In this document: one piece after another, positions 716 to 61,218 of the stretch
How positions within the stretch are numbered: position 1 is the first letter of the stretch
How the letters are laid out: each line of letters begins with the position of its first letter
Source of the DNA: Antedon mediterranea
Taxonomy: Eukaryota; Animalia; Echinodermata
DNA length: 64,000 nucleotides
NCBI RefSeq assembly: GCF_964355755.1
Contig: NC_092678.1
Location: 17,439,365-17,503,364, forward strand
Direction of reading: 5' to 3'
Position numbers and translations under genes: made by a program
The notes under the pieces: model-generated
What the model was told of the DNA's origin: nothing
What the model saw: the letters and a program-made list of their open reading frames with translations, nothing else
Database searches by the model: none

Positions 716-716
716 C

Positions 717-13891: not shown

Positions 13892-16800
13892 CTTGAAAAT
13901 AAAAACATGAATACTTGGTAAAATAACAGTTCACGAGTTGAGATTTTCTTCTTCGAGGAAAATTGTTACAGTTTGGTATGTATGTCAGCGGACAAAATTG
14001 TGACCGTAAAATAATTTATCTGCATTGTACTGTTAGTGTGTATTACGTGTCAGTGAAAATTAAAGAGGGTCGATAATGGTGCAAACATTAAAATATTAAA
14101 ATTAAAATACAAAGTTTATCAATTGAGTACGTAGAACTAAAGATCCGAAGCCTAGTTGGTTGGAACTTGTTCAGCCAGAGATGGTTCCTGATCAAGTTAA
14201 AACTATCAAACACGTCACAGGAAGCGTGGACAAATGTAGAAAACGCGTCAAACGTCGAAGGAAAAAATTCAAACCTCCATCCATCTGTTATTTTTGGTAA
14301 TGCGCACTCACTCAAAACAAGTGAAATGGCTGCAAATGTATTCGAATACAGGGACAGTTGCCTTATGGCGATCACTGAAACTTGGCTAATTGAATCTTTT
14401 CGGATCATGGATCAAAAAATTGTTCTTGTTATCTGGAAATATTAACATTAAACAGTACCAACGGAAATTACGATAATAAAGTATCTATTTTATTAATTTC
14501 GAAATACAAAGAAAAAATATGAACAAAATATCTATATTGTGCCAACAGAGGCCAACAAGACTTATGTCCAATTAGGCGTGTCACTCAAACAGTGAAACAA
14601 TTACAAGGTATAATTGATATAATACTAATTTAATGTTACTTTATCTCATATTATCATTATTTGCATGTTTTAGCTGTTTTTCATTAACTGTCTTTGCATG
14701 ATTATAACAATGTTTTATCTAGATTGACTGTAATCATGTTGTACTTTCCATATCATATGATTTCTGGATGTAGATCAATATCTACAATATAATACAAACG
14801 TTAAATGACGATGATCCATGTATTCTGCTATATTTTTACTTTTCATTATGGCAGCCGACGGTGCTACAGTAACTGAATTAAATAGTCTTGTTCGTAAACA
14901 ATGCCAAAATAGAAAAACTCGAAGAGAGCAAAAAGAAAGATATTACGCTTGAACGTATCACACATTAAACATACATATTCCGTAGAAGTATTAATTCCTA
15001 AAATAAAATAATTGTTTTTTGAGGCATAGAGTTAAACTTACGTTTTCATGAGAGGAGGATAAGATAATATTTGTTCCTCGTGCAAAATAAGCTTATTACA
15101 ACACTATTGCAGATTATAACGTGAATCGGCGGCGATTGTACGGAGGCATGTCTATTTTTGTTTTCGTATCTAATTTTGGCTTTCAAAAATGGCAGCCCAA
15201 AGCAATCGCGACCCCTGGATCCGACCCGTCGGACTATTTTGATATACAATGATGGAGGTTCAGACGTTCTGTGGTACATTTAAATTGTATTATTTGTATT
15301 TCCTCTTAACTTAATCTTAATTTCAAATAGAATAACATCAATAAAGTAATATTGTTTACTTAGAAGTGTGCCAGTTATTCAGCACTGAAGAAAACAAAAT
15401 CAGAAAACATTTAAACACATGCGACCACGTTTTTTTAAACAGTATTAAGGCTAAGTGTGTTAATTATTGAGATGTAAAGCACATAGGCTGATTTTAGCAT
15501 GAGTAAGTGCAGATATGGAGGGAGGAGAAATATAAAGTGTAGACACAGATATCACCTCACACGCAAGCTATTACTGACCCAGTGTGAAGGCCGAAATCAA
15601 GAGATTAGTTGTTTGACGGGATGGGATGTTCCTGCTCCCCAATTATTGTGATCCCTTTATTTATAGAACTTGAAAAGCAGAAAAAAGAGGAGAATGTGTA
15701 TGTTTGTTTGTTGCAAGATGCCTATAACGCTGGTTCAAATTTTAACTTAAGTTTATCTTACGAACGGATAACGCTAATATTGTACGTACCACCACATTAG
15801 GTAACCGATGCGCCCCCATTATGACACGTGCGAATAAAGAACAAGTGCTATTCCACTGTACGGAGGGATAGCTACCCGATGCCTCTCATAATAATATTAT
15901 TTTTCATTCAAAAACATTTACTAATAATGATAATAATAAATTACTATAAAACAAACGAATACAAGTAGGCATATCACTACACACAATACAACTACATACA
16001 GGAGCTTGTGTTAAAAGAAAGGTTTAGGGATCAATCATAATCAAACAAAAACGGGCATATTATATTATTTTTGTTTTGGATGAATATTCTGTCTTTGCAA
16101 AGAGTAAAAAATGAAATGATGTGACATAAAGTGTGGTAATCTTACAACGAAAATATACTATATTCAAAAGTATGATAAACAAGGGAAAGCACTCACAGTT
16201 GTGTCAATGATGTCAAACCATCAAAGACGTTTTCTGGTAATGTAGTTATTTGGTTAGTGAACAAGTACCTGAAAATCGTGAAAAAATGCATTAAATAGGT
16301 ATATATACAGTACCAAAGGATAGTACGATAACAAAAATTATTTTTAAAATTTCGAAAAACAAACAAAATATAACAACACATCTATATTGTGCCAACAGAG
16401 GCCATAAACGGCTTATGTCTAATTAGGCGTGTCACTCCAGCAGTGAAACCATTACAGGGTATATACAAGGACATAATAATAGTTGTTTAATGTTACTTTA
16501 GCTCGTATTATCATTAGTTGCATGTTTTAGCTGTTTTTCTTTAACTGCTTTTACATGATTTAACTATGTTTTATCTGGATTTACAACAACCAAGACAGAG
16601 GCACCCCAAAGATAATGCTGGCCAGGAAAAGGTATACAAAACAATTCTAAGTCTAAACAACTTTAAGAAACCTCATTATTTCCATATGCCTTAATGAATA
16701 AATGGGTTTTTAATAATTTTTAAAAAGTATCAATAGTTTTTCAAAATCTTATAGAGCTCGGTAGAGCATTCCACAGACGAGGAGCAGTAACGGAGAATGC

Positions 16801-19800: not shown

Positions 19801-22800
19801 TCCAACACCACCCCCAGTTTTGTCCACCCTAGGGACATGCACAAAGCGATATCCTAGTGGAGTTAAATCTCCAATCACAAGATCATCGTCTGGTCCACAA
19901 CTTCATCACACTTGCGTGCATTTAGAAATTAAGATGTGCTTTTTCTTTAGACCTATGCTTTTCTGTGGATTTAGTACTCGTCTCACCATTTCCAGATACT
20001 TGCTCCACTCCTTTTCTTGAGGCTTTGCTTTGCGTTGCGTGGATCGAGCATTAAGTACACATAATTTTAATTTAGAAAAATGAGTACTTATGGCACTGTG
20101 TCCTTTTGCAGTCGGCGGACTGTGTCCAGGTACTGGCTCCACTCTTGGTGTATTTGGTCTCTGTAGGGTTTTATTTGTAGAAATACCGCTGCGAAGATCG
20201 TACATCCTATATATCCTCGAGTACGATGATATTGACTGAGTCATTTTCGCGTCCCTGTCATATGAAATTAATTTTCGTGTGGCAACACTCGCGTTTGGCG
20301 ATAAATAAACAAAAGTCATCTACTGAGACTTGAACTCGCGATGATTAGTCCACACTATCACGAGACAACGTTTAACCCGCTAGCGCCACGCAACTTGCTT
20401 AAAGAAATTAATCAACTACACTATTTAAACTATGCATACATAACGCCCTAATTTATTATTAGCCCTCTCTAGACGTGATGAAAGACCGTTTGTGATTGGT
20501 CAATACTCACGGTAGTAACCTGGTACGCGCGGCGCGCTGAACATCTGGTGATTCGGCTCGAAGAAGACGAATTATTATTTATTCGGCCTAACTGATAATA
20601 ATAATATTATTATTATTAATGTAGATTTATTGTTGGAAATTCTTCTGTTAATTTAAACGACCTAGGCCTAAGTGAATATTTTATTGCCAAGGAATCATTA
20701 ATTAGTAATTATCTGTATATTGCTCTTCGCAAGGTAACTAGGCAGGCTTATTACATACATGTGGTCTAGCTACTCCCGACCCAGTAGATATTCTACTTGT
20801 TGTTGGCTATATAATATAACAGATATCGCCTTTTATATCGGCAAAATATAAGATTTGACATTCCCTCGGGAATGATATTTTGTTCGAGGGAATATATTCC
20901 CGAGGGGATGTCATTCCCGAGGGATGTTAAATCTGTTATTTTTAACTAACCAGGCGAATATCTGTATTATATATTATGTCGTTAGACACATGTGGCCAAG
21001 GATTACCAATAGTAAAATGAATCACTGTCCTATCAGATAGGTGGTGATTCCACTAATACAGGGGCTATTTTGTGAACCAGTTCACCGGGATAACTCCATA
21101 CTCGTCTCGAATGATGAACTGGATTCTTTAAAGTACACACGGGTTATAACTATGTACACTGGACCTACGGTTTGTAGTACTTATCCGAGAAGACTTGTTC
21201 AACCACCAGAACTAGGAGCGAGTCGGCCTCGAACCATTGTTGATATTGTTGGCTCTTTCGTCATGGTAAACAGCTCCTCTGCATTAACCGCTCGGTCATT
21301 TGAATATGGGCCAATAGGTCCAACAAAATTTTATTTAACTACAACATCCTTGCTACAAACAATCTCGTTGTACATGTTAATCATAGAATAATGGTTTACA
21401 CTTTTATTCGTGGTTCTTCTTCTGTTCTTCGCAATCAAGAACATGTGACGTATTTCAATTAAAACATAATGGTGACGACTTACGATCGACATTTTTCCGA
21501 CGAACTGTCATACTTCGTAGTCTTGAATAGTTAAACGTCATAATGTCTGAAAACACATCGGTACCGGCTTTGACAAAATCTTCAAGCTATGTCTACACTT
21601 TCAAACTTTGTATGAAGAAAATGTGATGTGCCCATATTGATGTCATATCAGTAGCATAATTTGGTCGTCAAACTAGTTTGATAGTGTAGACAGAGCTATA
21701 TAAATAGCTAATAACAAGTGACGGTGTATCAAGAAAATAAACGTATACAAGCAGAAAAAAAAATTCCAAAAATGTTAGTAACCTTAAGCATACTATTCTC
21801 TCCCCTCCGAAGAAATGTATACTCAATAGTTATTTTGAATATTCTACATGTTGACTTACATAATAAACTGTACGCACTTCCTCCTGAACTGATATCTACC
21901 AAATACATCTAAACATTTTACTGTGAACTTTCACACATTTGTGCTTATAATCATCTGGTTCGGTTTTATCAAAGATATGCTGTGAACATTCTAACAAATC
22001 TCGCCCTTTCTCCAAGTATTCTTTAATGTTAATTTTACTTTCACACAAAATCGATTATAAAAGGCAACCGATGAACATTACTGTTTAGAGAACACTAAAA
22101 ACTGCGGCGTTTCTCGATCATCTAGTCCGAGGTGTGTAAAGTTAGAATACACTGCTTCGGGAATACGCTACCTTAATCCACGTTAGGGCAATTGAGCACT
22201 GTCTGTAAGACTTTGTTAAGCAGAAAGGTATATCGAATGAAAACTAAAAGAAAAGTTAGGAGCTGTGACTAACCATCGATTTCAGCCAAACAAAAACATG
22301 GAACATACTCTATCGACTAAATACGGACCAAATCATGACCCATCAAGATCATATGTATAACTTGACTGCTGATAAATGACGATCGTAAGCTCTTTACACT
22401 CCACCACTGTAAGGAGCTCGAAAGCAGAGATGAATAAATGAAATGAATAACTTTCACTACTATATCCTAATTGATAATGAAATAAACATGAACTATATTA
22501 AAAACATTAAAATTGTTAACTGAAAGTACATGATGAACAAACACTATTTAGTTTAAGAACATCTGTAATATAAAGAAATTGAAACTACTTAATTTGTATT
22601 TTGTACATTACTTTATTGCATTGTCAATACCAACGTAATGAAATATCAGAATAGAGGCCTACAGCACCGAATATTTATGATAACGTGATCAAATGATTAT
22701 TTGAATAGACACCACACCTATGAAATTGAATACAAACATTCTGTAGTAAAAATTAAGCTGGTTTCTTGTGGTAGCGTCAGCAAGCATTATTGACGTGAGT

Positions 22801-25800
22801 AGTGTACTTCATATTATTGTTATGATGTATTGTAATTTGTCAGGATATATTTTAAGTAAACAAAGCTAAATCAAATAAACTGGACTTAGTTTTCCCTTAG
22901 TAAATTGACACTTTATACTGCCTTAGTAGGTTACAATGAACCTAAGAATCAGGCAAACCTTCAAATATCATATCTTATATCAATCATGTCTAATTTCATA
23001 ATTAATATATGATTGCAGTCTTGACATTTTTTGGAAGCATAAAATTATAAATTACACTTACAGTTTTTGCAAAGATGTTAAACCACCGAATACATTTGCA
23101 GGCAATGATTGTAAGCTGTTTTCGTATAAATACCTTCAACAACAAAAAGAAACAACAGTTAGTAATTAAACATTCACGAGCTGTTTCGAAGGATGTCGTC
23201 TTTGTTTTTGAACAAAAAAGTTAATTAAAATATGTTGGCCGTATAGAATAGGTGTCTGTGGAAATTAAGATAAGGCTGATAACGTTACGAACGTTTGGTT
23301 ATTACACAAATGAAAATGTAAATAAAGTGCATGGTCGAATAGTTTTAGGGTTCTAAGATGGAGAAATAGACATCAAACTCGTCTGCTGTCATTCGTCTAA
23401 AAGTCAATATAAACGGTCAGGCCGTTATTATAAATGAGAAAACACGTAGTAAAAGTGTAGTAGTATACATAAACTTAATTTAAACTTTTCATAAAATGTC
23501 GATTGATGTTACGTATGAAGTGATATCCGGGAACATTGCGTCAAGTTTATCGAACAATTTGGTACGAACTTTCAAAACCGCTTTACCATGCCATTAAGTA
23601 ATTGTTCATATAAAGAATCGAGTCAAATGGCCGAGCGGTTAAGGCACGGGCGCCGTTTACCGTACCTAAAGAGCCAACAACATCGACAAGGGTTCGAGGC
23701 CGACTCGCTCCTAGTTCTGGTGGTGGAACAAGTCTTCTCGGATAAGGACTATAAACCGTAGGTCCAGTGTACACAGTTATAACCTGTGTGCACTTTAAAG
23801 AACCCAGTTCATTATTCGAAAAGAGTAGGGGGTTACCCCGGTGAACTGGTTCACAAAATAGCCCTGTATCAGGGGGATTACCACCTATCTGATAGGACAG
23901 TGATTAATTCAATATTGGTAATCCTTGGCCACATTGCCCAAAGACATAAAATAAAAATAAAATAAATAAATAAAATATCAATGTAAACGATTCTATGTGG
24001 TTTATGTTCTAAAAAAACTGCTATTGTTAGCCATATCCATTGAAAAAAAGAACCTATTATACTTTTACGGACCATTTTCGCTGAACACGTCGTAGATGTT
24101 GGTACTTAGCGTTAGTTAGTTTTAAGTTGGACAAAAGCAGTTTATTAACTTTAAAAGGAGCATCCCAACCATTGCCTGGTCGGCTATCTGTGACTAAACG
24201 TCCTAAATGGAAGATACTAAAGCATTTTTTAAAACTAGAACACAATACTACTGTTGTAAGGTCTATGGCCCACAAGAGATTTGATGTTACTGTAATGATC
24301 AACAACTGTAACATTAACATTGGTCAAATCAAGTAAACATGTTCCTACCAAGAATAACCTGTAATACAAAAAAAGTAAACATAATAATACAATTTTAATA
24401 TAAATGTTATTGACAAAAAGAGAGATAGACGTTTCGGTACCATCATAGAACCATTTTCAAGATCAAGTGAATTCAAATCAATAATAATTATGTGCACTAA
24501 GCACCAAAGTTGGTGACATGAAATGCTACTGAGGGATTGAAATTATATAGTAAACGTCTTTTTATTCCTAGTAATACAACTTAAAACTATCATTTTAATT
24601 ATTTTGCAAAAAAACAAAAAAACACCAACATATTTTATGTTTTATCCGCTTTGATTAAGAATAAATTGAATAATTTGTTATTGTTCAGAGTCATACCACA
24701 AGGCTTCAATTAAAAAAACATACTTTAACGTACTAATGTTATAGGATCTAGTATGCCAACAAATTACACCAGGTATGTATGCAACATTTTACTCCAGAAG
24801 ATGTAAAAATACTCAAGAATAAACTAGCTAAGTGTGAAACTGATGGGGGTGACAGTGTCGTATTAAAACGTCGTCAAAAAGTCGAGAATAATATGACCGA
24901 TATCTTATCATTTCTTATTAACAATAATGTTGAATTAAAGAATTCCGACATTTGCTGCTGTGAACTTATCTAAAATTGCAACTGTTCATATTGGGGCTGT
25001 AGATACTGCCTCGTTATATCGTGAGATAAACAAGATACCATTTGATTTGCAGCTTGTAAAAGGAGATGTTGAGCATGGTTTTACTGAAAGACAACACATC
25101 AAGAATAAGCTGAATGAGTGTTATTGAACAGTCAAAACTTCATTGAACTGCAATAATGCTAGCAACGCCAAGTATTTTCCTAATGCTGTTTAAGTGATGC
25201 TTCTCGTCAAGGTACGTATAAGCAAAGGCCACAAAAAAGCAGACACATGCCTTCTTTGTGTCTATACCTTGGACATATGTCCGTTGATACCACCGTGGAT
25301 GGAAATCAATGCAAAAGTGAGTGCTTTGACTGTTAAAAGTGATGAATATGTTTCTTTATTGTTGAGCTGTGATGCTAAATATAAAGAGAATATACTTGGT
25401 CCGTCACTCTGGCCTGCTAATGCCATCATTCGTAAATATTATGAGCCTAGAATTGGTTTGATAGATAATCAATATGACTCCAGCTTTAACCATACTGGTT
25501 AGTCATGGCTGTACATCAAACTTGTGATGTCCGAGTAGTTTCATATAACTGTAAGAAATTAAAGTCTAGACAGAAAAAGATTATTGACTTATGCGAGACG
25601 TATGATGTTATTTGTTTCCAAGATGAGCTTCACCTCTTGAAAACGCTGTATATTGATTTTGACTGTTATGGCACGTCGTCTATTGATACCTCCGCATCTC
25701 TGGAGGTGTAGCTACATTGTTTAGAAAGAGTTTATATAGTTCTGTTAGGCACATTAATCTAGCTGACAATAGCTTGTTGCCATTGAGCTAGGTGTAGATA

Positions 25801-38762: not shown

Positions 38763-41700
38763 TTCAGAATCTGACTTTTTCTCATTCTCACAGATTTCTT
38801 CATCTTTATCGTTTCAAATTAATTAATTAAATTTCAGTATATCACCGGGCGGTTTAGAATTAATGTTCTTTGCCTCTTGTGTTTATATATATATATATAT
38901 ATATCAAAATACTACGTATGTAAAGATCAACGACTGTAACAATAACATCGGTGGATTTGAGGACAACCCTGAATACCTGTAATATAATAAATTACAAACA
39001 GTAATATAACTTAAAACTTAAAATCATCAGCTAACATACCATTTTATCCGCTTTGACAATACAGAATAAATCAAAGAAGTTGTTATTGTTCACAGTCATA
39101 CCACCATAATGCTTCACTTTGAATGTACCGTAATTTTACAAGTAATATTTAACAGTTAAACCTACCGTTAAATGTATAATTTCAGAAATAACATGATTTA
39201 TTTGAATTTTTATAAGTAAGAAAACAAAATGAGAATAAACACTTACAGTATAACCAATGATGTCAAACCACCAAATGCATTTTCATACAATGTAGTAATG
39301 CCGTTACTGCTTAAATCCCTTCAAAATAAAAACAGTTGGTAAATAACAGTTCACGAGTTGAGGTTTTCTTCTTTGGGGAAAATAGGTACAGTTTGGTGTG
39401 TATGTCAGTGGATAAAATAGTGACCCGTAAAATAATTTATCTGTATTGTACTATTATTGTGTATTACTGTACGTGTTAGTGAAAATTAAAGAGAATCGAT
39501 AACGGTATAACAAACGTTAAAATATTATTCAAATTATAAATACAAAATAAATTGATTTAGTACGTACTGTAGTACGTCAGGAATAGGTTGTTCGTTTATA
39601 TAATTACTAATCTAAGACGGAGAGATAACATTTTAATACATCTTAAAGGCAATTGAAAAATAATCAATCCCTTACTAAAAGCCGAAAAGTAGCAAGAGTG
39701 TGCAACTTATTTGTTATAGAATAGAGAAAAATAGTGCATGTTTAGACACAAACCAGCAAAGCTGATGTAATCTGAGGGTAGCCTACAATAATTAAAGTAC
39801 ACGTATAACTAAACGATAAAGAAAGAAATGTATACATAAATCAATGTCAAATAACTACTGTAGCTCGATGATATCAAACGGCGCATCTACACACTCATGA
39901 CATTGATTCAATCCGAAAAGTTTACATTGACAAGAAAAGTCAGCATTTTTTTAAAGTTATGTATAATCAACTACCAAAATAATAATAAACATTTTTAAAA
40001 TACCGTTTGTTATCTAATTTACGGACGTAGGAAGTCTAAAATCAATATATATGTACATATTTGTTATTTAGTGCCTTTGATTAACATTAACATCCGTTAC
40101 TCTATTGTGTTAACCCACTGTGTAATAATAGTGCCTGTTTCTGTGGTTAATTGCGCGGTGCAATGCTGGTTTTTCAATTGAGGATTTTTCAATTCTGTTC
40201 TCGCACGATTTTATTATTCTATTTTATGAAAAGATGAGGGGCATTTTGGAAACACATTTTTTATACAATTCGAATGAGTGTACGATGTATTAACCAATTT
40301 ACAGAACTTACGTATCGAAAAAAAACACCATGGACTGAAATCGTGGTTTTGTGTGGATGTGCTAATTGGAATGATTCGTTTACGCCAGTCCTGTACTTTT
40401 ACAATTAACTAATATTAATTTTCCGTTGTATCATTTTCATTTCTATATTTTGTAATAAAAATAATATAATCATAATAACAATTTTTTTTTTTAATATAAG
40501 CTTTAGAATTAACGTAACTGCGATCAACGTTTCAATGTTACTACGCTTGTCTTATGAAAGCTTACAGTTTGCACAAAACAGGTTCTTTGATGATACTTAC
40601 AAGAATGTTATTGGTTGATGATTATTGTAGTTCCTGACGGATTCTGCTGTTGTATTAATATATTTCCGACAGCTTAAGTAGTTAAATATGCAATCGCATC
40701 CAGTTGGACATATCTGTTTTAGGAATAATAATTGTTCTGTAAAAAAAAAATGTTTGTGAAATTAGGTACTAGTTTTGAATTTACCTAAATGGACAGTAAA
40801 ACAATAGCTATAAAAATGTAATAACTATGTTTGTCATTTAACTATTAATTGTATAGGACTTGGCTCTTGAGTAGGACTAGACGTTGTGAAAAGGTAGATG
40901 TATCTTAAGTTTAGGTCATTCTTCAAAGATATCATAATCTAATATCATTTTGATACATTACTGTTGTACATGTGCAATTTTGGATTTGTGGATTTGACGC
41001 ACACTGGTTAAATATTGATCTCTTTTTTCTTCAAAGGTCTCTCAATTCCGTGTCCAATTACGTCTGCCAGTGGAATTTGTATAGTCTCTAACAATGCACC
41101 ATCGCCGAGTTAGCTCATTGGCCGCCTTCTCCAGAGTAGGGGTCAAAGAGCCAGTGTTGTGGTGGAATAATGTTTTATAATTCAGGTGATTCATTATTAG
41201 TAGTAATATATACCGTACAGTCCAATGAATAATTCATAAATTAATTAATGAATATTAATATATTAATTATGAGTGTAGTATTTATGAATAATTAATATTT
41301 TAAAGGGTATTATTTATTAATAAATTAATAAATTAATTAATTATGAGGGGTAGTTTTTATGAATAATTAATATTTTAAAAGTAGTTTTTATGAATATTAA
41401 TATTTTTAAGGGTATTATTTATGAATAAATGAATTAATTAATTTGTTTAGCGATCTCAGTCCAATGTATAAGTAATAAGTAATGAGATGTTTTTATATTC
41501 ATGAATATTAATATATTTTTATTAATATGAGGGGTGTTTTAATGAATTATTAGTAAATGAGTGATAGTTTTACGTATAATGTTTAAACGTAATACATGTA
41601 TTACATAATGTTTAAATAAATATTTACATTTAAATATTAAAGACAATGTGCTTACCTTCATTGAGAAGTCTGATGTACAGTTTAATGAATAAAATCCACA

Positions 41701-44700
41701 AGTTTAATCAGCTTTGATTACTGTTTTTTATGCTTGTATAAGGAATCATAACATCAATTCGCTGTCTTTCCATGGAATTAGTTTACATGTGAGGCGTGGA
41801 CAGATCGTTTTTTGTAATTCTGTGATTTTAGCGGGTATGTGACGTCATCCGGCAATGAACCAATAAGATTCCTTATAAGCATAATGCTAATGAAATTAGA
41901 ATTCGTTGTCCTTGTTGAGATATTCAAAGATATTAAAAGTTATTTAATTATTTTACTAGTTTTTTATCCTTTTGTTTTTTTTCATTTAGTTACATAACCG
42001 CATTATTTTTTAAGGGTATTCCTTCAATATATAAAGATGGTAAAAAATAAATAAATAAATAAAAATTAAAAATAATGTGCTTACCTTCATTGAGAAGTCT
42101 GATATTATAGTATATTTTAATGAATAACATCTACAAGTTTAATCAGCTTTAATTACTGCTTTTTTTATGTTTGTATAAGAACAAAATCATAACATCAATC
42201 CGCTGTCTATTTTTTCAAATCCTGTGATTTTAGCGGGTATGTGACGTCATCAGGCAATGAACCAATAAGATTCCTTATAAACATAGCGCTAATGAATTAA
42301 TCTACCAATCATAATTCGTTGTTTTTGTAAGCGTAGCGATCTCAGTCCAATGAATAAGTAATGAGATGTTTTAATATTCGTGATATTAATATATTTTTAT
42401 TATTAATATGAGAGTGTTTTAATGAATACTTAGTAATTGCGTTGGTATTTATTCTAAGAATTATTGAATTAAGTATGATATATTTAAATTATTTTATTTT
42501 TAACACGGTACCTGATTTACTATATATATATACACATTGTTAATTTGAAAACAGTACAGTTTTCCTGCTTTAGATTTTTAACATTTAGTCATCTGTTCTT
42601 TATCCTGCTGTTATTATCTATCAGGATGAATTCTACTCAAAATCAATCCGGTAGTAAGAGAGTTTTTTCTTCTTCAAAAGGACAGAGTGCTGTATCTAAT
42701 CGAGTAAAGATACACAAAGTTTCACATCAACATGGCACAGCAGTACCTTCAAATTGTATGACGTGTTTAATGGCGATTCAACCCCCACCTCCAATGAACG
42801 TTGATTTCAATAATGTATCTAATACTGAAGAAGACGAACATTATAGATCGAGAATAATTTCTGAAGAGGAGAGGATTTTATACGACGACACGTCATCGGT
42901 AGTTGACTACCACCTATTTCTAGCAAGAAAAGCCGATGTAGAAGATGAGGTAGAAGATGAGGTGTTTGCAGAAGAGTACCTGAACCCTGTGCTGGAGGCG
43001 GAGATTAAGAAAGAAACTACCGAACTTGAGTACAAAGAAATAATGAGAACAATTGAGAAGGTTTTCATAGAAGAATTTATATTCATTCTGAAGGACATGG
43101 TTGAACGTTATAACTTTCACGGCTCAAGATATGAACAACTCCTAACATTTTTTCGACCAATTCTGGCATTGAAACTTGTGGACAATAGCGCTACCCATTT
43201 TGAATGGGCGCTAAACTACTTTCATTTACGTTGCATCAATGTTGATGCGTTCGATAAAGCCATAAAGTTGATTACAAATGATTCAGAACTTTTTAATAAG
43301 ATTCTTTACCAATTGTAATTTGTACAAATTTAAAATAATATCTTAACACTTTTTTAATTAATGTTACATAATTTTATAATTCTTATTTCTTTTCGGTAAA
43401 TTTATTATTATTATGGTTATAAATTATATTGAAATAGAATGTGTGTTAAAATAAAGGTTGTGTTTTTTTCTTTTAAAAGCAACAAGAACGAAAATGAAAT
43501 TTGATCTTTGCGTGTTATTTAAGTATTTGATTTATTTTTTTTAAATTTTCATTTGGGTGAATGAGGGTAATGAATATGAATGAGTACTTAAGAAAAGTAT
43601 ATTAATATCCTAAGCATCCTGATAGTTTTGGTGGTATGGACCGACTTTATCAAAATGTAAAAGACGATTTAAATATTACCAAGAGACAAGTTCAAGACTG
43701 ACTGAACAAGCAATACATTACACACATCCATTCAACGTAAATTCAAACAAAACTGGGTACTTGTAAGTGCTATTGATGAACAATGGGGAATGGATTTGGA
43801 AAAATAACGTGTATAAAATTTGATTCAGACAAACTGTTTGCAAAATCAAAGGTTTGACTCTAGATTTCTAAAAATCAAAGGAAGTCAATTTTGAAATAGT
43901 TGGTAGCATGGTACGAGGAATCGGACTGGAAAAAATAACAACAACTAATCCTAACAAAATAAACCGTAAACCAAAATCTCACTTAATATTTATTTTTTAT
44001 AAATTTGTAAAAGTAGTTACCCTATTTTAATTCATGGTAAATTTATTTTTCGAATTAATTTAATTTGTTTTATTTTCTGTTGAATTTTTATTATTATTAT
44101 GTTTGTAAAGTGTATTGCAATAGATTTGTTTAATAAAATAAATTATGTTTTGACTTAATTTATGTCAGTGTAAATTTGTAAAAGTAGTTTTCCTATTATA
44201 ATTCATGATAAGTTTATTTCTTGACTTTGCTTAATTTTTTCTTTTCTGTTAAAGTAGAATGTGTATTGAAATACATTTTGTTTTTAACATCAACAACAAA
44301 AATGAAATTTGATCTTTGCGTGTTGTTTAACTCGTGTATGAAGTTTTTGAATTTGTTAAATGTAATTGCAAACATACATATTAAATGATTGTGATTAAAA
44401 ATATTCTGTTTACTTTTTATTTTTTATTTTAAACAGTAGTATTTTTAACAGTAGTTATATTTTATATATAGGTAATATTACAAAAATAAACATACAAAAT
44501 GTATAAAGCATAGACTTATTAAATTTAAATACAATTTCTTTATTTCAAAATGAATTTCATTCAATTTCATCTCTCTAATTAATTTTAGATGTGTTATCAT
44601 TTATCTAAAATGTATATTTCTCAATAATAAGCATTTACTTTATAAATTTGGTAAAAATACATTTATAATATTCCTTCTTATTGAAAGTGTCGTTACAAAC

Positions 44701-47700
44701 CGTGCGTCTCAAATTTGTTTCCTTTTGTGTGCGTTTTTATATCAGTACGTATTGTGTCTTTCTTAAAAGATTTAAAATTGAAAACACGTATAAAATGAAA
44801 TTCATTTTGAAATAAAGAAATTGTATTTAAATTTAATAAGTCTATGCTTTATACATTTTGTATGTTTATTTTTGTAATATTACCTATATATAAAATATAA
44901 CTACTGTTAAAAATACTACTGTTTAAAATAAAAAATAAAAAGTAAACAGAATATTTTTAATCACAATCATTTAATATGTATGTTTGCAATTACATTTAAC
45001 AAATTCAAAAACTTCATACACGAGTTAAACAACACGCAAAGATCAAATTTCATTTTTGTTGTTGATGTTAAAAACAAAATGTATTTCAATACACATTCTA
45101 CTTTAACAGAAAAGAAAAAATTAAGCAAAGTCAAGAAATAAACTTATCATGAATTATAATAGGAAAACTACTTTTACAAATTTACACTGACATAAATTAA
45201 GTCAAAACATAATTTATTTTATTAAACAAATCTATTGCAATACACTTTACAAACATAATAATAATAAAAATTCAACAGAAAATAAAACAAATTAAATTAA
45301 TTCGAAAAATAAATTTACCATGAATTAAAATAGGGTAACTACTTTTACAAATTTATAAAAAATAAATATTAAGTGAGATTTTGGTTTACGGTTTATTTTG
45401 TTAGGATTAGTTGTTGTTATTTTTTCCAGTCCGATTCCTCGTACCATGCTACCAACTATTTCAAAATTGACTTCCTTTGATTTTTAGAAATCTAGAGTCA
45501 AACCTTTGATTTTGCAAACAGTTTGTCTGAATCAAATTTTATACACGTTATTTTTCCAAATCCATTCCCCATTGTTCATCAATAGCACTTACAAGTACCC
45601 AGTTTTGTTTGAATTTACGTTGAATGGATGTGTGTAATGTATTGCTTGTTCAGTCAGTCTTGAACTTGTCTCTTGGTAATATTTAAATCGTCTTTTACAT
45701 TTTGATAAAGTCGGTCCACACCACCAAAACTATCAGGATGCTTAGGATCTTAATATACTTTTCTTAAGTACTCATTCATATTCATTACCCTCATTCACCC
45801 AAATGAAAATTAAAAAAAAATAAATCAAATACTTAAATAACACGCAAAGATCAAATTTCATTTTCGTTCTTGTTGCTTTTAAAAGAAAAAAACACAACCT
45901 TTATTTTAACACACATTCTATTTCAATATAATTTATAACCATAATAATAATAAATTTACCGAAAAGAAATAAGAATTATAAAATTATGTAACATTAATTA
46001 AAAAAGTGTTAAGATATTATTTTAAATTTGTACAAATTACAATTGGTAAAGAATCTTATTAAAAAGTTCTGAATCATTTGTAATCAACTTTATGGCTTTA
46101 TCGAACGCATCAACATTGATGCAACGTAAATGAAAGTAGTTTAGCGCCCATTCAAAATGGGTAGCGCTATTGTCCACAAGTTTCAATGCCAGAATTGGTC
46201 GAAAAAATGTTAGGAGTTGTTCATATCTTGAGCCGTGAAAGTTATAACGTTCAACCATGTCCTTCAGAATGAATATAAATTCTTCTATGAAAACCTTCTC
46301 AATTGTTCTCATTATTTCTTTGTACTCAAGTTCGGTAGTTTCTTTCTTAATCTCCGCCTCCAGCACAGGGTTCAGGTACTCTTCTGCAAACACCTCATCT
46401 TCTACCTCATCTTCTACATCGGCTTTTCTTGCTAGAAATAGGTGGTAGTCAACTACCGATGACGTGTCGTCGTATAAAATCCTCTCCTCTTCAGAAATTA
46501 TTCTCGATCTATAATGTTCGTCTTCTTCAGTATTAGATACATTATTGAAATCAACGTTCATTGGAGGTGGGGGTTGAATCGCCATTAAACACGTCATACA
46601 ATTTGAAGGTACTGCTGTGCCATGTTGATGTGAAACTTTGTGTATCTTTACTCGATTAGATACAGCACTCTGTCCTTTTGAAGAAGAAAAAACTCTCTTA
46701 CTACCGGATTGATTTTGAGTAGAATTCATCCTGATAGATAATAACAGCAGGATAAAGAACAGATGACTAAATGTTAAAAATCTAAAGCAGGAAAACTGTA
46801 CTGTTTTCAAATTAACAATGTGTATATATATATAGTAAATCAGGTACCGTGTTAAAAATAAAATAATTTAAATATATCATACTTAATTCAATAATTCTTA
46901 GAATAAATACCAACGCAATTACTAAGTATTCATTAAAACACTCTCATATTAATAATAAAAATATATTAATATTCACGAATATTAAAACATCTCATTACTT
47001 ATTCATTGGACTGAGATCGCTACGCTTACAAAAACAACGAATTATGATTGGTAGATTAATTCATTAGCGCTATGTTTATAAGGAATCTTATTGGTTCATT
47101 GCCTGATGACGTCACATACCCGCTAAAATCACAGGATTTGAAAAAATAGACAGCGGATTGATGTTATGATTTTGTTCTTATACAAACATAAAAAAAGCAG
47201 TAATTAAAGCTGATTAAACTTGTAGATGTTATTCATTAAAATATACTATAATATCAGACTTCTCAATGAAGGTAAGCACATTATTTTTAATTTTTATTTA
47301 TTTATTTATTTTTTACCATCTTTATATATTGAAGGAATACCCTTAAAAAATAATGCGGTTATGTAACTAAACGAAAAAAAACAAAAGGATAAAAAACTAG
47401 TAAAATAATTAAATAACTTTTAATATCTTTGAATATCTCAACAAGGACAACGAATTCTAATTTCATTAGCATTATGCTTATAAGGAATCTTATTGGTTCA
47501 TTGCCGGATGACGTCACATACCCGCTAAAATCACAGAATTACAAAAAACGATCTGTCCACGCCTCACATGTAAACTAATTCCATGGAAAGACAGCGAATT
47601 GATGTTATGATTCCTTATACAAGCATAAAAAACAGTAATCAAAGCTGATTAAACTTGTGGATTTTATTCATTAAACTGTACATCAGACTTCTCAATGAAG

Positions 47701-49846
47701 GTAAGCACATTGTCTTTAATATTTAAATGTAAATATTTATTTAAACATTATGTAATACATGTATTACGTTTAAACATTATACGTAAAACTATCACTCATT
47801 TACTAATTATTCATTAAAACACCCCTCATATTAATAAAAATATATTAATATTCATGAATATTAAAACATCTCATTACTTATTACTTATACATTGGACTGA
47901 GATCGCTAAACAAATTAATTAATTCATTTATTCATAAATAATACCCTTAAAAATATTAATATTCATAAAAACTACTTTTAAAATATTAATTATTCATAAA
48001 AACTACCCCTCATAATTAATTAATTTATTAATTTATTAATAAATAATACCCTTTAAAATATTAATTATTCATAAATACTACACTCATAATTAATATATTA
48101 ATATTCATTAATTAATTTATGAATTATTCATTGGACTGTACGGTATATATTACTACTATTATTGTCTCGTTTCTAACAATATCGGAATTTTTACCTGGAT
48201 GAAGTCTCTTTTGCAAAAAGAAGCTTTGTGTTATGTTTGTTTAGAAACCTCTTACCATTACGTTTGTGAATTTCTTCCAATTGATCAATTGTTTTTGCAG
48301 AGGTTTTTTAAAGATTTTAGGTTGTCCAGGGAGCGTTTGTTTGCCAAATTCTCTGCAATCTAAGGTTGTGTCTAATTTTCAATCAAGTAAAGAGCTTAAA
48401 CTAGAGTATGATTAATTACTGTAATTGAATATTTAATTAATGGCAGTAACATAGCGTAGATTATAGAGTATAGACAGCGATTCAGATTAATATTTGTTAT
48501 AAAATCAAACAACAAACGTAAAAGACTTTAGTATATAATAGCGATCTTCCTTGTATTAGCTATAGTGTTTTATTTTAGAATTTTTGCAAGTAGTGTTTCT
48601 CTGTTTTAAAAGTATCTTCTATCAAATCGCCTAAAAAAAGCCTAATCAGGTTAATACATTATACTTTTTCAGTAACTTAGGGGTTATTAGTTTACAATAC
48701 GTCGCGAAACGCGTTACACTTAGCGACTGACGCGTTTATTTTTTTTCAATATTTATAATACAATTATGAATTATTAATTTTTAAAAAACATTAAAACCTA
48801 AATAACCTACTGAATACAAAATATATTCATTGTATCCTAATTTCAAAAGTAATATTAAACGCACCCATTTTTTCGAATTAGCATACTCAGGGATGTATTG
48901 TCCCACAAAAGCATGAAAAAAATACAGATTTTTTATTATTCTTCATTTATCAGACTTATAATAGGCCTTTTTTTAGTTTTAATCAAGTTAATCAATTCCA
49001 TAGAAAAGACCGAAATAATAATGGTCCTACTTATAAAAAGACAAAATAAACAGATTAATTTCAACACAACCTCATTGAACTGCCAGCGCAGCAAATTTGA
49101 CTATTTCCTTTTTCAAGTAAATATATTTCTTAAAATCCAATTAGTCAATGTGAATAACTCTTATGTGAAATTAAAATGGCATATTCAACAAAAAATTCCA
49201 ACAAATTATTTTTTCAAGGGATAATATATCTTCAATTCTCATTTTACTTATATTTTCAGGTTAGCCTAAAATAATTTCTTGCACCGTACCAATTAAATTT
49301 AAAAATAACTCACCCGGTGGAACAATTACTGCTGTAACTGTTGCATTAAATCCTCTCTTTGTTATAATAACATCAGTAGATAAAGAAATCCACATTGTGT
49401 TGTTGTTGGAAACTAGAGAATCAAATGTTGAACCTGTAAACCTGATTTTATTTTCATTTTCTGCAAATGCTATATCCAAATAATCAAATTTGTTCTCCAG
49501 TTGAAAGTCGTTGAACTCAATACGAATAACCAACTCTGGAGAGGTTGTAACCATCCATTCACACTTTAAATTGTTGTCGTAGTTCTTCGGATAATTAGGA
49601 GACCAAAATACATATGATGAGTTCTCAGATTCAAGATGAATATCCTTGTTACATTCTGCAAGAGAAATAAGATAATAATAATACACGGAATGTAGGCCTA
49701 TTGTTACTATTGTATTGATAGAAATATAGCGTGATTAATAATTTAGGTAATCACAATATTTGATATTTTCAAAATAACCTTAAAGGTAATATATCCGGCT
49801 AATCCTGCATATCTAATTGTTAATGATGGTTTTAATATGATAGGCC

Positions 49847-52972: not shown

Positions 52973-53530
52973 TAGTGAGGTTCCTCATGTATGAAAATAG
53001 GGGTTCCGTAGGATTTTAATGCCCAAAGTTAGATTTCACTTGATTTTACGTTATTATAGTGCTAGGATACCAAAAATGCTAGGTAAACCATTTTCACGAT
53101 CTTGTAACCATGGTAACAGCCCCAAGTTCAAAATGGCGACCAAATGGCCATATCTCCATAACCCTTTGGTCTATTGGCAAGATATTGGTATCAAAATACT
53201 CGGAATATATATATTTATTTTCGTTGTAATGGAACATTTTTACTAAATGCAACCGGAAATGCTATTTTCTGTACTATTGACCCTAACCTTGCCTCGTACT
53301 GTATCTTAAAAACGGCTCGTCATAAAAATTTAAAAATGGTCTCAAATTGCTCAGACCTTATATATTTATATTTATTGTAATGCAATATTTTGTTAAAAAA
53401 TGTCCGGAAGCAAAGCTATTGAACTTTGACATAGATAATAGCTTAAAAACCGATTTTCATTCAGTAGTCTCTGATCATATCTCCATAACCCTTTTGTCTA
53501 TTGACAAGATATGGGTAAAAAAAGGATTTT
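52973..53530. mobile_element. Probable single end of an Academ-like DNA transposon
   Basis: Begins TAGTGAGGTTCCTCA, contains CAAAATGGCG and a repeated CATATCTCCATAACCCTTT motif; no partner end found. Confidence 0.35.
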
Positions 53531-54299
53531 GAAAAGTTACTATAAACAATAAAGTCGTTTCCAAATTTATGTAGGCCGCTTTGAAAAAAAAAATTTTCCA
53601 TTTACCATCGTTTTTTCCTAGATATCGTTTAACCCAACAGGCTTTTAGAGCTTGACAGTAACTTTGAATATGTGGCATTTCAAACCTCCTTTTTCTCTTG
53701 TTCGTTGCACATGATTTTCCTTTTTATCTTATCGGGTTTTCCGTTCCATAACAAATTAAACATCTTACCTTGCATATTATTGAATAAAGTGATTTGGTGG
53801 GTCCGGTAAGATTGAAAAATGAAAAGTTAAATTTTGCAGAACCAGTGTTTTTATTATAGTATTTTTTCCAAATAGGGTAATGGATCTTTGGCTCCACATG
53901 TTTAGTATTTTATCATATCTTTAGATTTTGGTCAAAAATTTTAATCAACTATATTATCTAAATTACTTGAAACATTATACCAAGGTATCGTATGGGTTCG
54001 TTAGTCTGTAGTTTTGTTTGGTGGGAATTTTAAAATCCGAATTTCTTAATGAACCCAATCTCATTATATTACTTTTTTCATAATTTATCTTAAGCCCTGA
54101 GGATAAAGCAAATAAGTTCAAAGTGTCCATGATGGGCTTTATTGAATTGGAATCGTTTATATAAAATACCGTGTCGTCAGCAAATTGACTTAATTTAATG
54201 TTTACGTTATTATAGGATATACCTTCTATTTTTTCTGTTTGACGGACTGCATTGCCTAGGATTTCCGCACATAGAATAAACAAGTATTGTGATAGAGGG

Positions 54300-54592
54300 C
54301 ATTGAATTGAATTGAATTGAATTTATTTGGAAAATCATCATAAAAAATACATACAATGTGATAACATAAATTACGGACATTACAAATAATACATTTATAA
54401 AAGATTTTCCAGGATAGCCCAAAAAGCTTATCAGCTTATTTCCATTGGGATCCTTTTACAATCTAAAATAAAAATATAAACATTACAAAGCATTAAACAC
54501 GTAAATATAACAAAACAGTAATATAAAAAAAAAGTTAAATTAAAGACGATGATTGACTTATAAAGTTATTTGGTTGAACAGAAATGTGAAAT
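54300..54592 (-). mobile_element. LINE 3' tail nested in the L1 RT
   Basis: (TTCAA)n tail and GGAT.CCCA…TGGG.ATCC stem-loop; splits the L1 motif SRGLR | CPLS. Confidence 0.55.
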
Positions 54593-54615
54593 GTCGTAAA
54601 CCACGACTAAGACTA

Positions 54616-55392
54616 AACAAGGCCAACAGCCATTAAGTCGCGTGCTACAATGCATAGTGATACCGGACCGACAGACAGACCGACAGACCGACAGACAGAC
54701 CGACCGACCGACATAGTGAACTATACTGACCAAAATTACTGAACATATTTAAAAATGTTGAAATGTTTAAAAACATTTATATTTTTTTAATTTAAGCGTG
54801 CGTAGCCTGTCACTTTTGACGTGCTTGTATAACGTAATTTCGAGTTGAAAAGTAAGTCAAGAAAACAGAACTCGTGCAAAAAGAGTGCGCAATAACAATT
54901 AACGCGCAGTGCGCGCGCAAAAATATGCGCATTTATGGCAATTTTGTAAACGCTTATTAAAATTGCCTGAAACGTACTCTTATTTCATCGAAAATAAATT
55001 TTGAAAATTTTAAGCGCGCGTACGCATGCGTTACATGCGCTACGCACGTAATTGTATTGACATATGATGATATATGCTCTGAAATTTATGAGTACCAAAT
55101 TTTATTTAATTTTGATTCATAGTTGTGAAGATATGATTACAAACGTGATTTCGTTAAATCGTGCGTAGACCGCTTACTTTTTTATTGCGCACCGTGAAAA
55201 CATAACCACATCGATTCCTGGCCATAAGGAATATACTGTAAAAAATTGACCTAGCTAGATTAAACTGATATCAAGATAAGGTCAGAAAGCGATAAAATGC
55301 ATAGTGATACCGGACCGACAGACCGTCAGACCGACAGACCGACCGACCGACCGACATAGTGAACTATACAGTCGCTTCCACGCGACTAAAAA
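54616..55392 (-). mobile_element. HINE/DINE-1-like element, copy nested in the L1 RT
   Basis: Near-identical to 8584-9390, inserted in a T-run. Confidence 0.75.
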
Positions 55393-58300
55393 TTCAGAAG
55401 AAAATCCGTTATTAATAACACAACTAAAAATATCATTATAAGAAGTTTTATCAAATTTATAAATTTATTTTTAAATCCAAATTGTTCTAGTGCATAGTAA
55501 ACAAAGTCCCATCTTATTTTATCGAATGCTTTTTCAAAGTCTTTTTTTGGAATCAATGATATTACCCCACGCCTTTGTGAAATAGAAAGACCTCCTCTTT
55601 GAAAGGAGTATTTGAATGAATTTGTTAGGGTTTGGCTAATTTCAGTTGGGAGACCATCGGTTCCTGGCGTTTTATTGTTATCCATTTCATTTAGGGCCTC
55701 AAAATAATCTTTTTTCGGAGAATGGGAGTTCACATTTTCTTTTATCTTCGTCACTAATTTTTTTATTTTTAATTTGTTTAAGAAAGGCGTGTTGTAAGTC
55801 GTTTCTTCTGATTTGTACAGTGTTTGGTAAAAAAACTTTGTCTTCATTTAATATTAGTTTTGGATCGGTTATTTCACCGTTCTCAGTAATAAGTTTTATA
55901 ATGTTTTTTTTATTATAATTTCCACGTTCTAAATTTAGGAAGTATTTCGTTTTTTTATTTCACCATCTTCCACATATTTGGCTCTTGATCTAATCATAAA
56001 ACCACTTGTTTTAAATTCATAAAGTTGTTCATTTTTTAAAATTTGAATTTGTTCGTTTACTGTTTGATCATTTTTATTGCAAAATTTCTCTTCTAAAATG
56101 TGTATTTCATTTTGTGATTTTTTAATGTTATGTTTATTTTACATTTTATTTTGTTTACTAGCAAATTTGATTGTGTTTCTTCTTTTGTTACATTTTGTCA
56201 TTTCCCAAATAGTGTTAGGGTTATTTTCTGCACATTCTATCTTGGTGATTTTTATTGTTTCTATAACATCCTTTACGTAGTTGGGATCCTGTTATAAACT
56301 AGTGTTCAGCTTCCAAGGCCTCTTTTGTGTATTAATTCATTTTATATTTTATTTCATTTTATTCATTTTATTGAAAGTGTTATTAATGAATGGTCAGTTT
56401 TAAATCATGATATAATTGATTGCAGTGTCGTTTACGTGTGCCCATAGAGAATATGAGATAAGAAAATAGTCAATTCTACAAAATATTAGTGTGGAGTCAT
56501 GATTTGAGTGCCATGTAAATAATTGTTTCTTTGGGTTCTGTACTCTCCAAATATCAATTAAATCTAATTTGTCTATAACTTTATTAATTTTCTCGGTGCA
56601 TTTTGAATGCGTTTGTCCCTTGCCATGTTTTTTTTATCGACAGACGAATTCGAAATTGTATTAAAATCACCTCCAATGATAATAGGGTTTTTTCCGAATT
56701 CCTTAATTTTGTCACATAAAAGTTTAAAAAAGTTAATGTCATCATTATTGGGTCAGTAAATGTTTACAATGGTAAATGATTTTTCATTAATTGTTTGCAA
56801 TGATTATTCTACCATTGTCATCCCGATAAACATTATCAAATTTGTATGTAGCATTTGGTTTAAAAAGTACACATACTCCGGCAGAATTGGATGTGCCATT
56901 ACTGAATAATATGTTGTTTCCCCATTCTTTTTGCCATGTTGATTCTAATTCGCTTGTGCAGTGTGTTTCTTGTAGAAAATAAATGGAAAAGGGACGATCA
57001 TGTAACCAATTAAAAACCGTCCGACGCTTAAACGAATTCCTTAGGCACCGTAAATCCAAACTACATATTTCTACATTTGCCAGCCAGAAAAGTTAGCAGA
57101 GCTTTCGGGCAACACTAGCCCTTCATCAGTGCAAGTGATATATATAATACAATTCATACATTAAGGTAGTTATAAACATATATAATAAAGTACAAAAACA
57201 TGGTATGGCTCTTGAAAAATAGGTAGCCAGGCCTACATGGCTCGTCCTATTACCGCTAAACAACAGCTCATCATGAGTAAGCATTGCTCCATAATAAGAA
57301 AAAAAATAAACATACATGCATAGCCTACATATTTCCGGTACTTCACAAGTGAGCTTCATGTAATTATAATTAAGAAGGTCAATAATAATCTGTTTTGGTG
57401 TGGAATTTGAAATTAGATGCATCATTAATAACATTTACTGGATAAAGGAAAGATATTTGATTTTGATAGTTATTAACCAAAATAACCACGGTGTATTCTG
57501 CAATGCCTATCTGCCTGCCCTGCACGACGTTGAGTACCGGCATTATGTAGACAAGATTATTGTTATTCATGAACGCTATTTTAATGGTTCCTATTGGTTG
57601 ATTGGTAATTAGCAATACTAGAGGGTTCGCTCGCGCACCCTCTAGTGGGTGTACCCGAATGGTCCTCGAAAACATGGCCAAAGCCTCTGGCCTTCTCCAG
57701 TGTGTGTCAGGGTGACATAAATTTGTACTCAAAAGTGTCACAATCCAAGAATGAATTAAAGTAAAGGCCTTCAATAATAGTTAAATTACTAAAACACATT
57801 GTAGTTCACCTAAAGTAAATGCTTTTAATCAATATAATTGATCAGCTGAATATCTAAAACAAATTAATTGCTAGGCCTAGTTCACAATACGTTGAACCAC
57901 TAAAAAATTTGTATTTATTATTGAATGTCGCCACCAACGGCCATTTTGCCTGAAGTGACGGACCCGGAAGCCAGTTGAACAACAGCACGAGTGTGTGAAA
58001 ATAATCCTGTGATATCCACAAATTTCGATAGGTAACGCTAAATGTTGTCGTAAAAAAAAAATGGAACAATAGCGTAGTACTGAAAACTAATGTTATCAAA
58101 TCTACGTTTCGCGGTACATCTAAGATAGATAAGATAGGTATCCAAGGCGGAGATTTATATCGAAGTTTTTCCATTGTGCTCGCCTATGTCGGAATTAACC
58201 ATAATTTATATATAGATTATCCAAATATGGTATGTCATGGACATAGTGTTTTTGCCATCGTTCACTGTGTAATCGTCCGTCTGCATTTCTAAGCATATAA

Positions 58301-60620: not shown

Positions 60621-61218
60621 TCATGAGGTAATTTCCCGATTGATCGTAATCAAAACGGTACTGGGTTTGGTCTACTAGCGTTCCTGCTCCCAACCAGTAC
60701 ATCCATTCATAGAAGCCTTAATGAAGTAAGCCTACATGGTGGTGGCCATAGAACGGTCCCGAGATAACGACTATACTTCGGCTTTAGTCGATAGAAGATT
60801 CTTCCTTATATCTATATTTTTTAATTTATACTAACAAATATCTTTTTTATTAATATAATAATAATAATATATCAAAAATTTATTAAATAATATTCATCGC
60901 ATAATATGCAATCTACGATAATTTAATTAATTGATATAACAAATGTATTAAATACATAACATCATTGGAATAAAAAGAACAAATCACATATCTACACATA
61001 ATCATAACATCGTATACTCTATCTCTAACAATTTATTCAATCTTCTATCGACTAAAGCCGAAGTATAGTCGTTATCTCGGGACCGTTCTATGGCCACCAC
61101 CAGGTAGGCTTACTTCATTAAGGCTTCTATGCATGGATGTACTGGTTGGGAGCAGGAACGCTAGTAGACCAAACCCAGTACCGTTTTGATTACGATCAAT
61201 CGGGAAATTACCTCATGA
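60621..61218. mobile_element. MITE with ~180-bp near-perfect terminal inverted repeats
   Basis: 60621-60800 is the reverse complement of 61039-61218 (TCATGAGGTAATTTCCCG…CGGGAAATTACCTCATGA), with an AT-rich centre. Confidence 0.85.

What the first reader, a model, noticed from the sequence alone, without database searches (positions are those of the whole stretch)
41193..48163. Integrated 7-kb fold-back ('snap-back') Polinton/Maverick made of one genome end copied back on itself
Seen: two ~3.36-kb inverted arms (41199-44561, 44794-48157) with a 232-bp spacer, AGTAGT…ACTACT termini and a perfect 6-bp ATTATT duplication. Both arms include sequence that is normally internal: an orphan ORF and the integrase start. 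Known: Polintons have (AGT)n or (AG)n termini, 6-bp TSDs, TIRs usually well under this length, and protein-primed PolB replication; DNA viruses that replicate by strand displacement can produce snap-back defective genomes. Inference: a template switch produced a hairpin genome with two copies of the same end. The TSD suggests it integrated as a unit, presumably using a helper's integrase. That would be a defective-interfering-like satellite of a Polinton.
Basis: partly seen in the sequence, partly recalled or inferred. Interest (0 to 1): 0.88.

Follow-up and report, generated by a model that had tools for sequence, protein, structure and literature searches.

The report
Snap-back palindrome from a defective Polinton
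A 7-kb mobile element in an animal genome is one end of a virus-like Polinton transposon joined to its own mirror image, likely made when a broken copy folded back on itself; its central joint was not found in two related samples where the parent family is common, so it is likely a one-off accident rather than a spreading parasite of the virus.

Summary
The structure is real as described: 3.36-kb arms differing at 7 sites, a 232-bp spacer, (AGT)2//(ACT)2 ends and a perfect 6-bp duplication. The integrase remnant is of Polinton type. Contigs of two other samples show that right arm plus spacer is the native order of a multi-copy family whose integrase is already cut short, and that the spacer normally runs on into other sequence. 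The new joint is left arm to spacer. It holds a 7-nt filler that repeats the adjacent arm tip, and it has no cover in the two runs where this could be worked out. So a parent with 3.36-kb terminal repeats is disfavoured, but nothing shows the hairpin spreading, and the duplication does not prove that it integrated as a unit. Best reading: a one-off asymmetric snap-back, sealed by host end-joining and then integrated in trans (0.42). Rivals: conversion in place (0.28), central deletion of a longer palindromic family (0.24), artefact (0.05). Precedents are AAV snapback genomes, Galileo extended repeats, maize Mu killer and 2-kb gene-bearing Polinton repeats. The scan noted similar palindromic Polintons twice before on other genomes (unchecked).

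The parts
41193..41198 (.). left copy of the 6-bp target-site duplication
41199..44561 (+). left arm, 3363 bp, begins AGTAGT; the copy that meets the new joint
41245..41560 (+). AT-rich subterminal direct repeats (70-85% alike)
41614..42296 (+). duplicated non-coding block (41614-41894 and 42045-42296, 74% alike)
42626..43318 (+). intact 230-codon orphan ORF, acidic, pointing inward
   Evidence: no relatives; model unusable (pLDDT 41)
43576..43798 (+). 5' remnant of a Polinton-type integrase with two stops and a frameshift; truncated before the catalytic core
43991..44330 (+). non-coding stretch resembling the ORF-integrase intergenic region 43316-43522 (70-82% alike)
44562..44568 (.). 7-nt filler at the new joint; 44563-44570 repeats 44553-44560 at the arm tip
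44569..44793 (-). 225 bp of family sequence that natively follows the right arm inward (the loop)
   Evidence: joint 44561 to 44790 on opposite strands in X1, X4, X5, X6; loose ends before 44569 in all four
44792..44808 (.). short palindrome (8-bp stem, 1-nt centre) across the native arm/spacer boundary
   Evidence: 2.6% of native positions lie in such palindromes; noticed after the fact
44794..48157 (-). right arm, 3364 bp, ends ACTACT; native end of the family
45557..45779 (-). mirror copy of the integrase remnant, broken at the same places
46037..46729 (-). mirror copy of the 230-codon ORF, identical protein
48158..48163 (.). right copy of the target-site duplication

Best explanation
The element is one end of an already non-autonomous Polinton family joined head-to-head to a copy of itself, likely formed once when a broken free copy folded back, was likely sealed by host end-joining, and was likely integrated by an integrase supplied in trans. 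Steps: (1) shown: right arm plus 225 bp of spacer is the family's native order, and the left-arm joint with its 7-nt filler is new. (2) Inferred: a molecule broken about 3.59 kb from its end primed on itself 232 nt back through a 2-nt match at the arm tip, stuttered once (the filler) and was copied out to the end. (3) Inferred from how protein-primed linear genomes replicate (recalled): a helper polymerase unrolled the hairpin into a linear duplex with two correct ends. (4) Inferred: a helper integrase inserted it and made the 6-bp duplication. It has since sat as a young, probably private insertion (0.1% change per arm).
For: Arm end joins the reversed spacer at family depth in 4 of 4 runs laid (depth 212 in X5 and 16 in X1, against flank contigs of 30-37 and 5), and no other continuation of the arm end is listed. 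In X5 and X1 the depth of bin 44560-44571 equals exactly what zero cover of the filler gives (98.2 and 10.2). The filler plus 2 nt repeats the 8 nt at the arm tip; simulated chance 0.004. The two halves differ in length by only 232 bp, which fold-back geometry gives directly (inference). The copy ends exactly at both termini with a perfect TSD. A flank contig of X4 leaves the window's sequence right after 41198, as an empty site would (table 8, record 13). In the ORF, 3 of the 4 listed differences from X5 are synonymous, so little decay in place preceded the doubling (small n). AAV makes asymmetric snapback genomes with a central loop, proposed to arise by end-joining (PMC9463555, section read).
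Against: The sequence cannot tell a free molecule from a chromosomal one, and the TSD fits all routes. No second copy of the joint was seen, though a replicating hairpin might be expected to multiply. No short inverted repeat brackets the spacer: the relatives' contigs stop aligning on both sides of the filler. On a looser test the filler's local template is weak (0.065), and the 0.004 test was designed after seeing the repeat. The parent's far end and true TIR length were not seen. No reads of the source individual were laid. X4 and X6 are unresolved by the depth arithmetic, and one search listed only 30 of 99 contig pieces.
Confidence: 0.42

Rival explanations
1. Conversion in place (TIR extension). 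A short-TIR family member inserted here first. A later break was repaired by copying its right end (or that of another copy) inward from the left TIR for 3.36 kb, and aborted synthesis was end-joined to the other broken end. The TSD is inherited and the hairpin never moved.
For: The filler repeats adjacent sequence, as in end-joining after aborted synthesis-dependent repair (PMC2895639, passages). The joint is not seen in other samples. The same outcome is described and explained this way for Galileo '2RT' copies (PMC3573991, Discussion read). Terminal depth in X5 is about 160-190 against about 100 just inside, and four contigs leave at 41443, which hints at a short true TIR.
Against: It needs a second rare event soon after an insertion that still looks polymorphic (record 13). 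Near-equal halves need a further assumption, such as the spacer being the resected tract. I first counted a left-arm excess of new letters in its favour but withdrew it: only 4 of 7 sites are resolved, and the lay on the left arm could show only that direction (one search listed 40 of 194 rows).
Confidence: 0.28
2. Central deletion. The multi-copy family is itself a longer palindrome (or has TIRs over 3.8 kb). This copy lost its centre, with breaks at 3363 and 3588 bp from the ends, and was end-joined with filler. The fold-back would then be older and shared by a mobile family.
For: One break-and-join event explains the filler, the near symmetry and the private joint. The data show only that the family continues at least 100 (X5, X6) to 228 (X1) letters past the spacer without listed branching, not how it ends. 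Gene-bearing TIRs of about 2 kb exist in mobile Polintons (10.1101/2025.02.07.637071, passages). Long palindromes are known to lose their centres (recalled).
Against: Vertebrate Maverick TIRs span 46-1447 bp (PMC8097293). In 7 of 18 long integrase-related loci with inverted repeats of 300 bp or more, none spans over about 1.35 kb. Terminal depth hints at a short TIR, though a second subfamily that joins at 42757 could explain it too.
Confidence: 0.24
3. Assembly or sequencing artefact (fold-back chimera or collapsed repeat).
For: The joint is unsupported in the runs laid. Palindromes are hard to sequence (general knowledge).
Against: Two different flanks with a perfect TSD, 7 scattered differences between the arms, no N, and a filler joint with no homology for a collapse. 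The samples laid are other individuals (1.4-4.2% different in the flanks), so absence there is expected for a private allele.
Confidence: 0.05

Closest known systems
Polintons/Mavericks, including non-autonomous copies (PMC8097293, PMC6431247, passages; 10.1101/2025.02.07.637071, passages and section 13)
   Same: (AGT)2//(ACT)2 ends, 6-bp TSD, long TIRs, integrase of the rve+chromo type; polB-less copies that stay mobile and TIRs of about 2 kb that contain genes are described.
   Different: No polymerase, ATPase, protease or capsid gene; 97% of the element is inverted repeat; arms are 2.3 times the longest vertebrate TIR; both arms come from one end as far as the data show.
Asymmetric snapback genomes of AAV (PMC9463555, abstract and section 7; PMC8235507, abstract)
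   Same: Two copies of one genome end around a central loop; proposed to form by end-joining of broken genomes.
   Different: AAV is single-stranded and hairpin-primed, and its snapbacks are packaged, not germ-line insertions with a TSD; no replication or interference is shown here.
Galileo two-extended-TIR (2RT) copies (PMC3573991, passages and Discussion)
   Same: Internal sequence recruited into both inverted arms of a transposon copy that keeps its ends; explained by break repair from the opposite TIR.
   Different: Galileo is a P-superfamily cut-and-paste element with no self-replication; here the recruited tract is over 3 kb and holds a whole ORF.
Maize Mu killer (PMC3440606, passages)
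   Same: Two copies of the same end and two partial copies of the recombinase gene in inverted duplication; proposed hairpin RNA silences the family.
   Different: Mu killer's effect was shown genetically; here no transcript or small RNA was examined, and the recombinase piece is only about 230 bp of each arm.

Membership tests
Polinton/Maverick (derivative) | (AGT)2//(ACT)2 or (AG)3//(CT)3 end motifs | tested here: met
   motif definition; the same ends in intact relative L005
Polinton/Maverick (derivative) | 6-bp target-site duplication | tested here: met
Polinton/Maverick (derivative) | Polinton-type integrase (rve + chromo, no N-terminal H2C2 finger, found with protein-primed PolB and packaging ATPase) | tested here: met
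   Remnant 67-71% identical to residues 1-77 of P0001, which has rve. Most of the 120 listed of its 729 longer relatives carry PF00665 plus PF00385; 0 of 115 have the finger motif (criterion from PMC2836005). Of 4 related loci scanned (of 63), 4 have rve+chromo, 3 PolB2, 2 A32 ATPase. Only a remnant is present in the element.
Autonomous Polinton | Intact protein-primed PolB, integrase, ATPase, protease, capsid genes | tested here: not met
   The only ORF of 150 codons or more in the element is the orphan, twice; integrase broken and truncated
Ginger1/Ginger2 transposons | TGTNR termini, 4-5-bp TSD, H2C2 finger | tested here: not met
Snap-back/copy-back defective genome | Stem is a copy of one end and the loop is the parent's own continuation | tested here: met
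   a longer-TIR parent is not excluded
Snap-back/copy-back defective genome | Formed on a free replicating genome | not testable with these tools
   Chromosomal and free routes give the same sequence
Defective-interfering satellite | Propagates with a helper (several insertions of the same joint) | tested here: inconclusive
   Zero cover of the joint in X5 and X1, unresolved in X4 and X6; the source genome is not held, so its own copies could not be counted; one copy in the window
Defective-interfering satellite | Lowers the helper's yield | not testable with these tools
   No functional data
Killer-type hairpin locus (Mu killer) | Hairpin transcript and small RNAs that silence the family | not tested
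   No RNA run held the stretch (searched as kind dna); both ORFs point inward

The most novel reading that the evidence does not exclude
Polintons throw off snap-back genomes made of one end, and these are replicated and integrated by helper elements as a class of defective-interfering satellites fixed in animal germ lines. Their inward-pointing promoters would also make long hairpin RNA that silences the parent family. This element, or the longer palindromic family it may derive from, would be such a satellite and a fossil record of free, protein-primed Polinton replication in an animal.
Probability: 0.15. Interest if true: 0.8.

Novelty: new variant of a known kind. Interest (0 to 1): 0.5.

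Why it matters
Free replication of animal Polintons is inferred but virions have not been seen (PMC8097293, abstract start). An integrated snap-back made on a free molecule would be a footprint of that stage, and it would explain how Polinton TIRs grow to kilobases and take in genes. The element gives a cheap test: count the filler joint across an assembly and a population. A 3.3-kb hairpin with inward-facing genes is also a candidate family-silencing locus like Mu killer. If it is only a repair accident in place, it is a Polinton example of what Galileo already shows.

Tried and rejected
No genome is held for the window, so copies in the source genome could not be counted. Orphan ORF: 0 Pfam families, 0 of 254 candidates, no usable atlas hit, 0 of 40 viral stretches, 0 hits in 1.84 billion representatives, no hit in 63 integrase-related loci; the single-sequence model was unusable (pLDDT 40.8), so no fold search was run. 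Exact DNA patterns found nothing in metagenome contigs or viral contigs; integrase queries gave no viral locus. No Rfam match. The bacterial promoter scan is irrelevant to an animal genome. Withdrawn: a claimed excess of new letters in the left arm (binomial figures), because the lay on the left arm could show only that direction. The TSD was rejected as proof of integration as a unit. A parent with TIRs of exactly arm length is disfavoured: one continuation only, and spacer depth is not half of arm depth. The empty site has an open stretch of 77 codons on the minus strand; the two flank pieces scanned gave no Pfam match (the right piece was read in another frame), so no host gene is claimed. 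The founding Polinton paper was not held; its model is recalled. PMC11161782 had no passage on TIRs. PMC5449611 did not cover palindrome formation in linear plasmids, so that precedent is recalled only.

Full report
Observation. The window holds a 6959-bp element at 41199-48157. Its arms (41199-44561 and 44794-48157) align at 99.79% with 7 differences, around a 232-bp spacer. It begins AGTAGT, ends ACTACT, and is flanked by ATTATT on both sides; a chance match of the two 6-mers is about 6e-4. The arms make up 97% of its length. There is one such copy in the window and no N. The surroundings (CUB exon, LINE fragments, other inverted-repeat elements) are those of an animal genome. No whole genome is held.

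Genes. Each arm has an intact 230-codon ORF pointing inward. It has no relative in any search and no usable model. Downstream lies the start of an integrase: 67-71% identical to residues 1-77 of P0001, an rve protein whose longer relatives are mostly rve+chromo proteins of about 350 residues (120 of 729 listed). None of 115 such relatives has the N-terminal finger of Ginger integrases (criterion from PMC2836005, passages). Of 63 loci that encode a relative (of 227 stretches) I examined the 18 of 9 kb or more for repeats and sent 17 of their 42 long ORFs, from 4 loci, to Pfam: 4 loci had rve+chromo, 3 had PolB2 and 2 had the A32 ATPase. With the end motif and the 6-bp duplication, which define Mavericks in PMC8097293 (passages), this files the element as a non-autonomous Polinton derivative. 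The remnant has two stops and a frameshift in both arms and ends before the catalytic core.

What the parent looks like. Seven public runs hold part of the region; I laid five of them (X1, X2, X4, X5, X6), all contigs. X4, X5 and X6 are one sample; X1 is another, with a different organism label. They are other individuals: flanks differ by 1.4-4.2% and the element by 1.4%. Three results stand out. First, the arm end at 44561 joins the reversed spacer at 44790 in 4 of 4 runs, at depth 212 in X5 and 16 in X1, against flank contigs of 30-37 and 5. So right arm then spacer is the native order of a multi-copy family. Second, in all four runs contigs cover the spacer only from 44569 and carry other letters before it (at least 100 in X5 and X6, 228 in X1), so the family goes on past the spacer into sequence that the window lacks. 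Third, contigs at family depth bridge the place where the integrase match ends (records 5 and 25), so the truncation is older than the palindrome. The new joint is therefore left arm to spacer. In X5 and X1 the mean depth of bin 44560-44571 is exactly what zero cover of 44562-44568 predicts (98.2 and 10.2); in X4 and X6 the sum is not resolvable. Contigs show presence, not absence, and 69 pieces were not listed, but a single-copy joint at X5's depth should normally survive. No second continuation of the arm end is listed and spacer depth is not half of arm depth, so a parent with TIRs of exactly arm length is disfavoured. A flank contig in X4 leaves the window's sequence right after the left duplication (record 13), which suggests an empty site there; the letters beyond were not shown.

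The joint. Seven bases belong to neither side. Six of them plus the next two spacer bases repeat the 8 nt at the arm tip. A simulation puts such an adjacent repeat at 0.004 (designed after seeing it); a looser test gives 0.065. Read as fold-back, the broken 3' end paired by two bases 232 nt back, extended six, slipped and restarted at the same spot. Read as repair in place, it is a templated insertion after aborted copying, as in Drosophila P-element gap repair (PMC2895639, passages). A short palindrome straddles the native boundary at 44792-44808; 2.6% of positions lie in one.

Mechanism. I commit to an asymmetric snap-back on a free copy, sealed by host end-joining and integrated in trans (0.42). 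It gives near-equal halves and exact ends in one event. The insertion looks young: 0.1% change per arm, a perfect duplication, and 3 of 4 listed ORF differences from X5 synonymous. A hint for a short true TIR is terminal depth of about 160-190 against about 100 just inside in X5, with four contigs leaving at 41443; overlap inflation or a second subfamily could explain it. I withdrew an apparent excess of new letters in the left arm: 4 of 7 sites show it, the other 3 are unresolved, and the lay could show only that direction. An artefact is unlikely (0.05) but untested with source reads.

Comparison. It works like AAV asymmetric snapback genomes (PMC9463555, abstract and section 7; PMC8235507, abstract), Galileo extended-TIR copies (PMC3573991, passages and Discussion; it also says, citing a review that I did not see, that expansion of inverted repeats was reported for Polintons) and maize Mu killer (PMC3440606, passages). 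Vertebrate Maverick TIRs span 46-1447 bp. Butterfly Polintons have TIRs of about 2 kb that contain genes, and polB-less copies that stayed active (10.1101/2025.02.07.637071; its supplements were not seen and may bear on this). Six searches listed no paper whose title or abstract start describes snap-back or defective-interfering Polintons; I read only the listings for most hits, and the library lacks most subscription journals. The founding Polinton paper was not held. The scan's own notes record similar palindromic Polintons on two other genomes (unchecked, not counted as support; one made me raise the central-deletion rival); none matched by place or sequence.

Verdict. A real, well-defined palindromic derivative of a non-autonomous Polinton family, with its new joint located to the base. 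It is a new variant of a known kind. The satellite reading stays open at about 0.15 and is testable by counting the joint in the source assembly. Interest 0.5.

Noticed in passing
window 42757: In runs X4 and X5 the inner 2 kb of the arm is about 2-2.5 times deeper than the outer 1.5 kb, and contigs with other upstream sequence join at 42757, inside the orphan ORF: a second subfamily or a chimera shares the inner part.
   Followed up: partly
window 43500-44793: The inner part of the family occurs at several copies in a run with a different organism label (X1), while its outer arm is barely matched there.
   Followed up: no
window 42626-43318: A family with a truncated integrase keeps an intact orphan ORF; 3 of 4 listed differences from run X5 are synonymous, hinting at selection.
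   Followed up: partly
window 41839, 42241: A GTGACGTCA motif (CRE-like, label recalled) next to CCAAT sits in both copies of the duplicated block upstream of the orphan ORF, a possible promoter.
   Followed up: no
window 41045-41198 and 48164-48240: The empty site has an open minus-strand stretch of 77 codons; a CUB-domain exon lies at 49261-49734 on the same strand, pointing towards the element.
   Followed up: partly
window 83-7075: Nested inverted-repeat elements (arms 83-149/7009-7075 and 2074-2222/5756-5904) around transposase-like ORFs at 3635-4778 without a Pfam match.
   Followed up: no
window 60621-61218 and 21062-23864: Other inverted-repeat elements: 180-bp arms 99% alike around 238 bp, and 242-bp arms 89% alike around 2.3 kb.
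   Followed up: no
window 10656-12568, 16741-19643, 53478-57092: Fragmented LINE-type reverse transcriptase frames.
   Followed up: no
L005 384-15912: An apparently intact 15.5-kb Polinton with 668-bp TIRs, AGTAGT ends, PolB, ATPase and integrase in a metagenome contig.
   Followed up: partly
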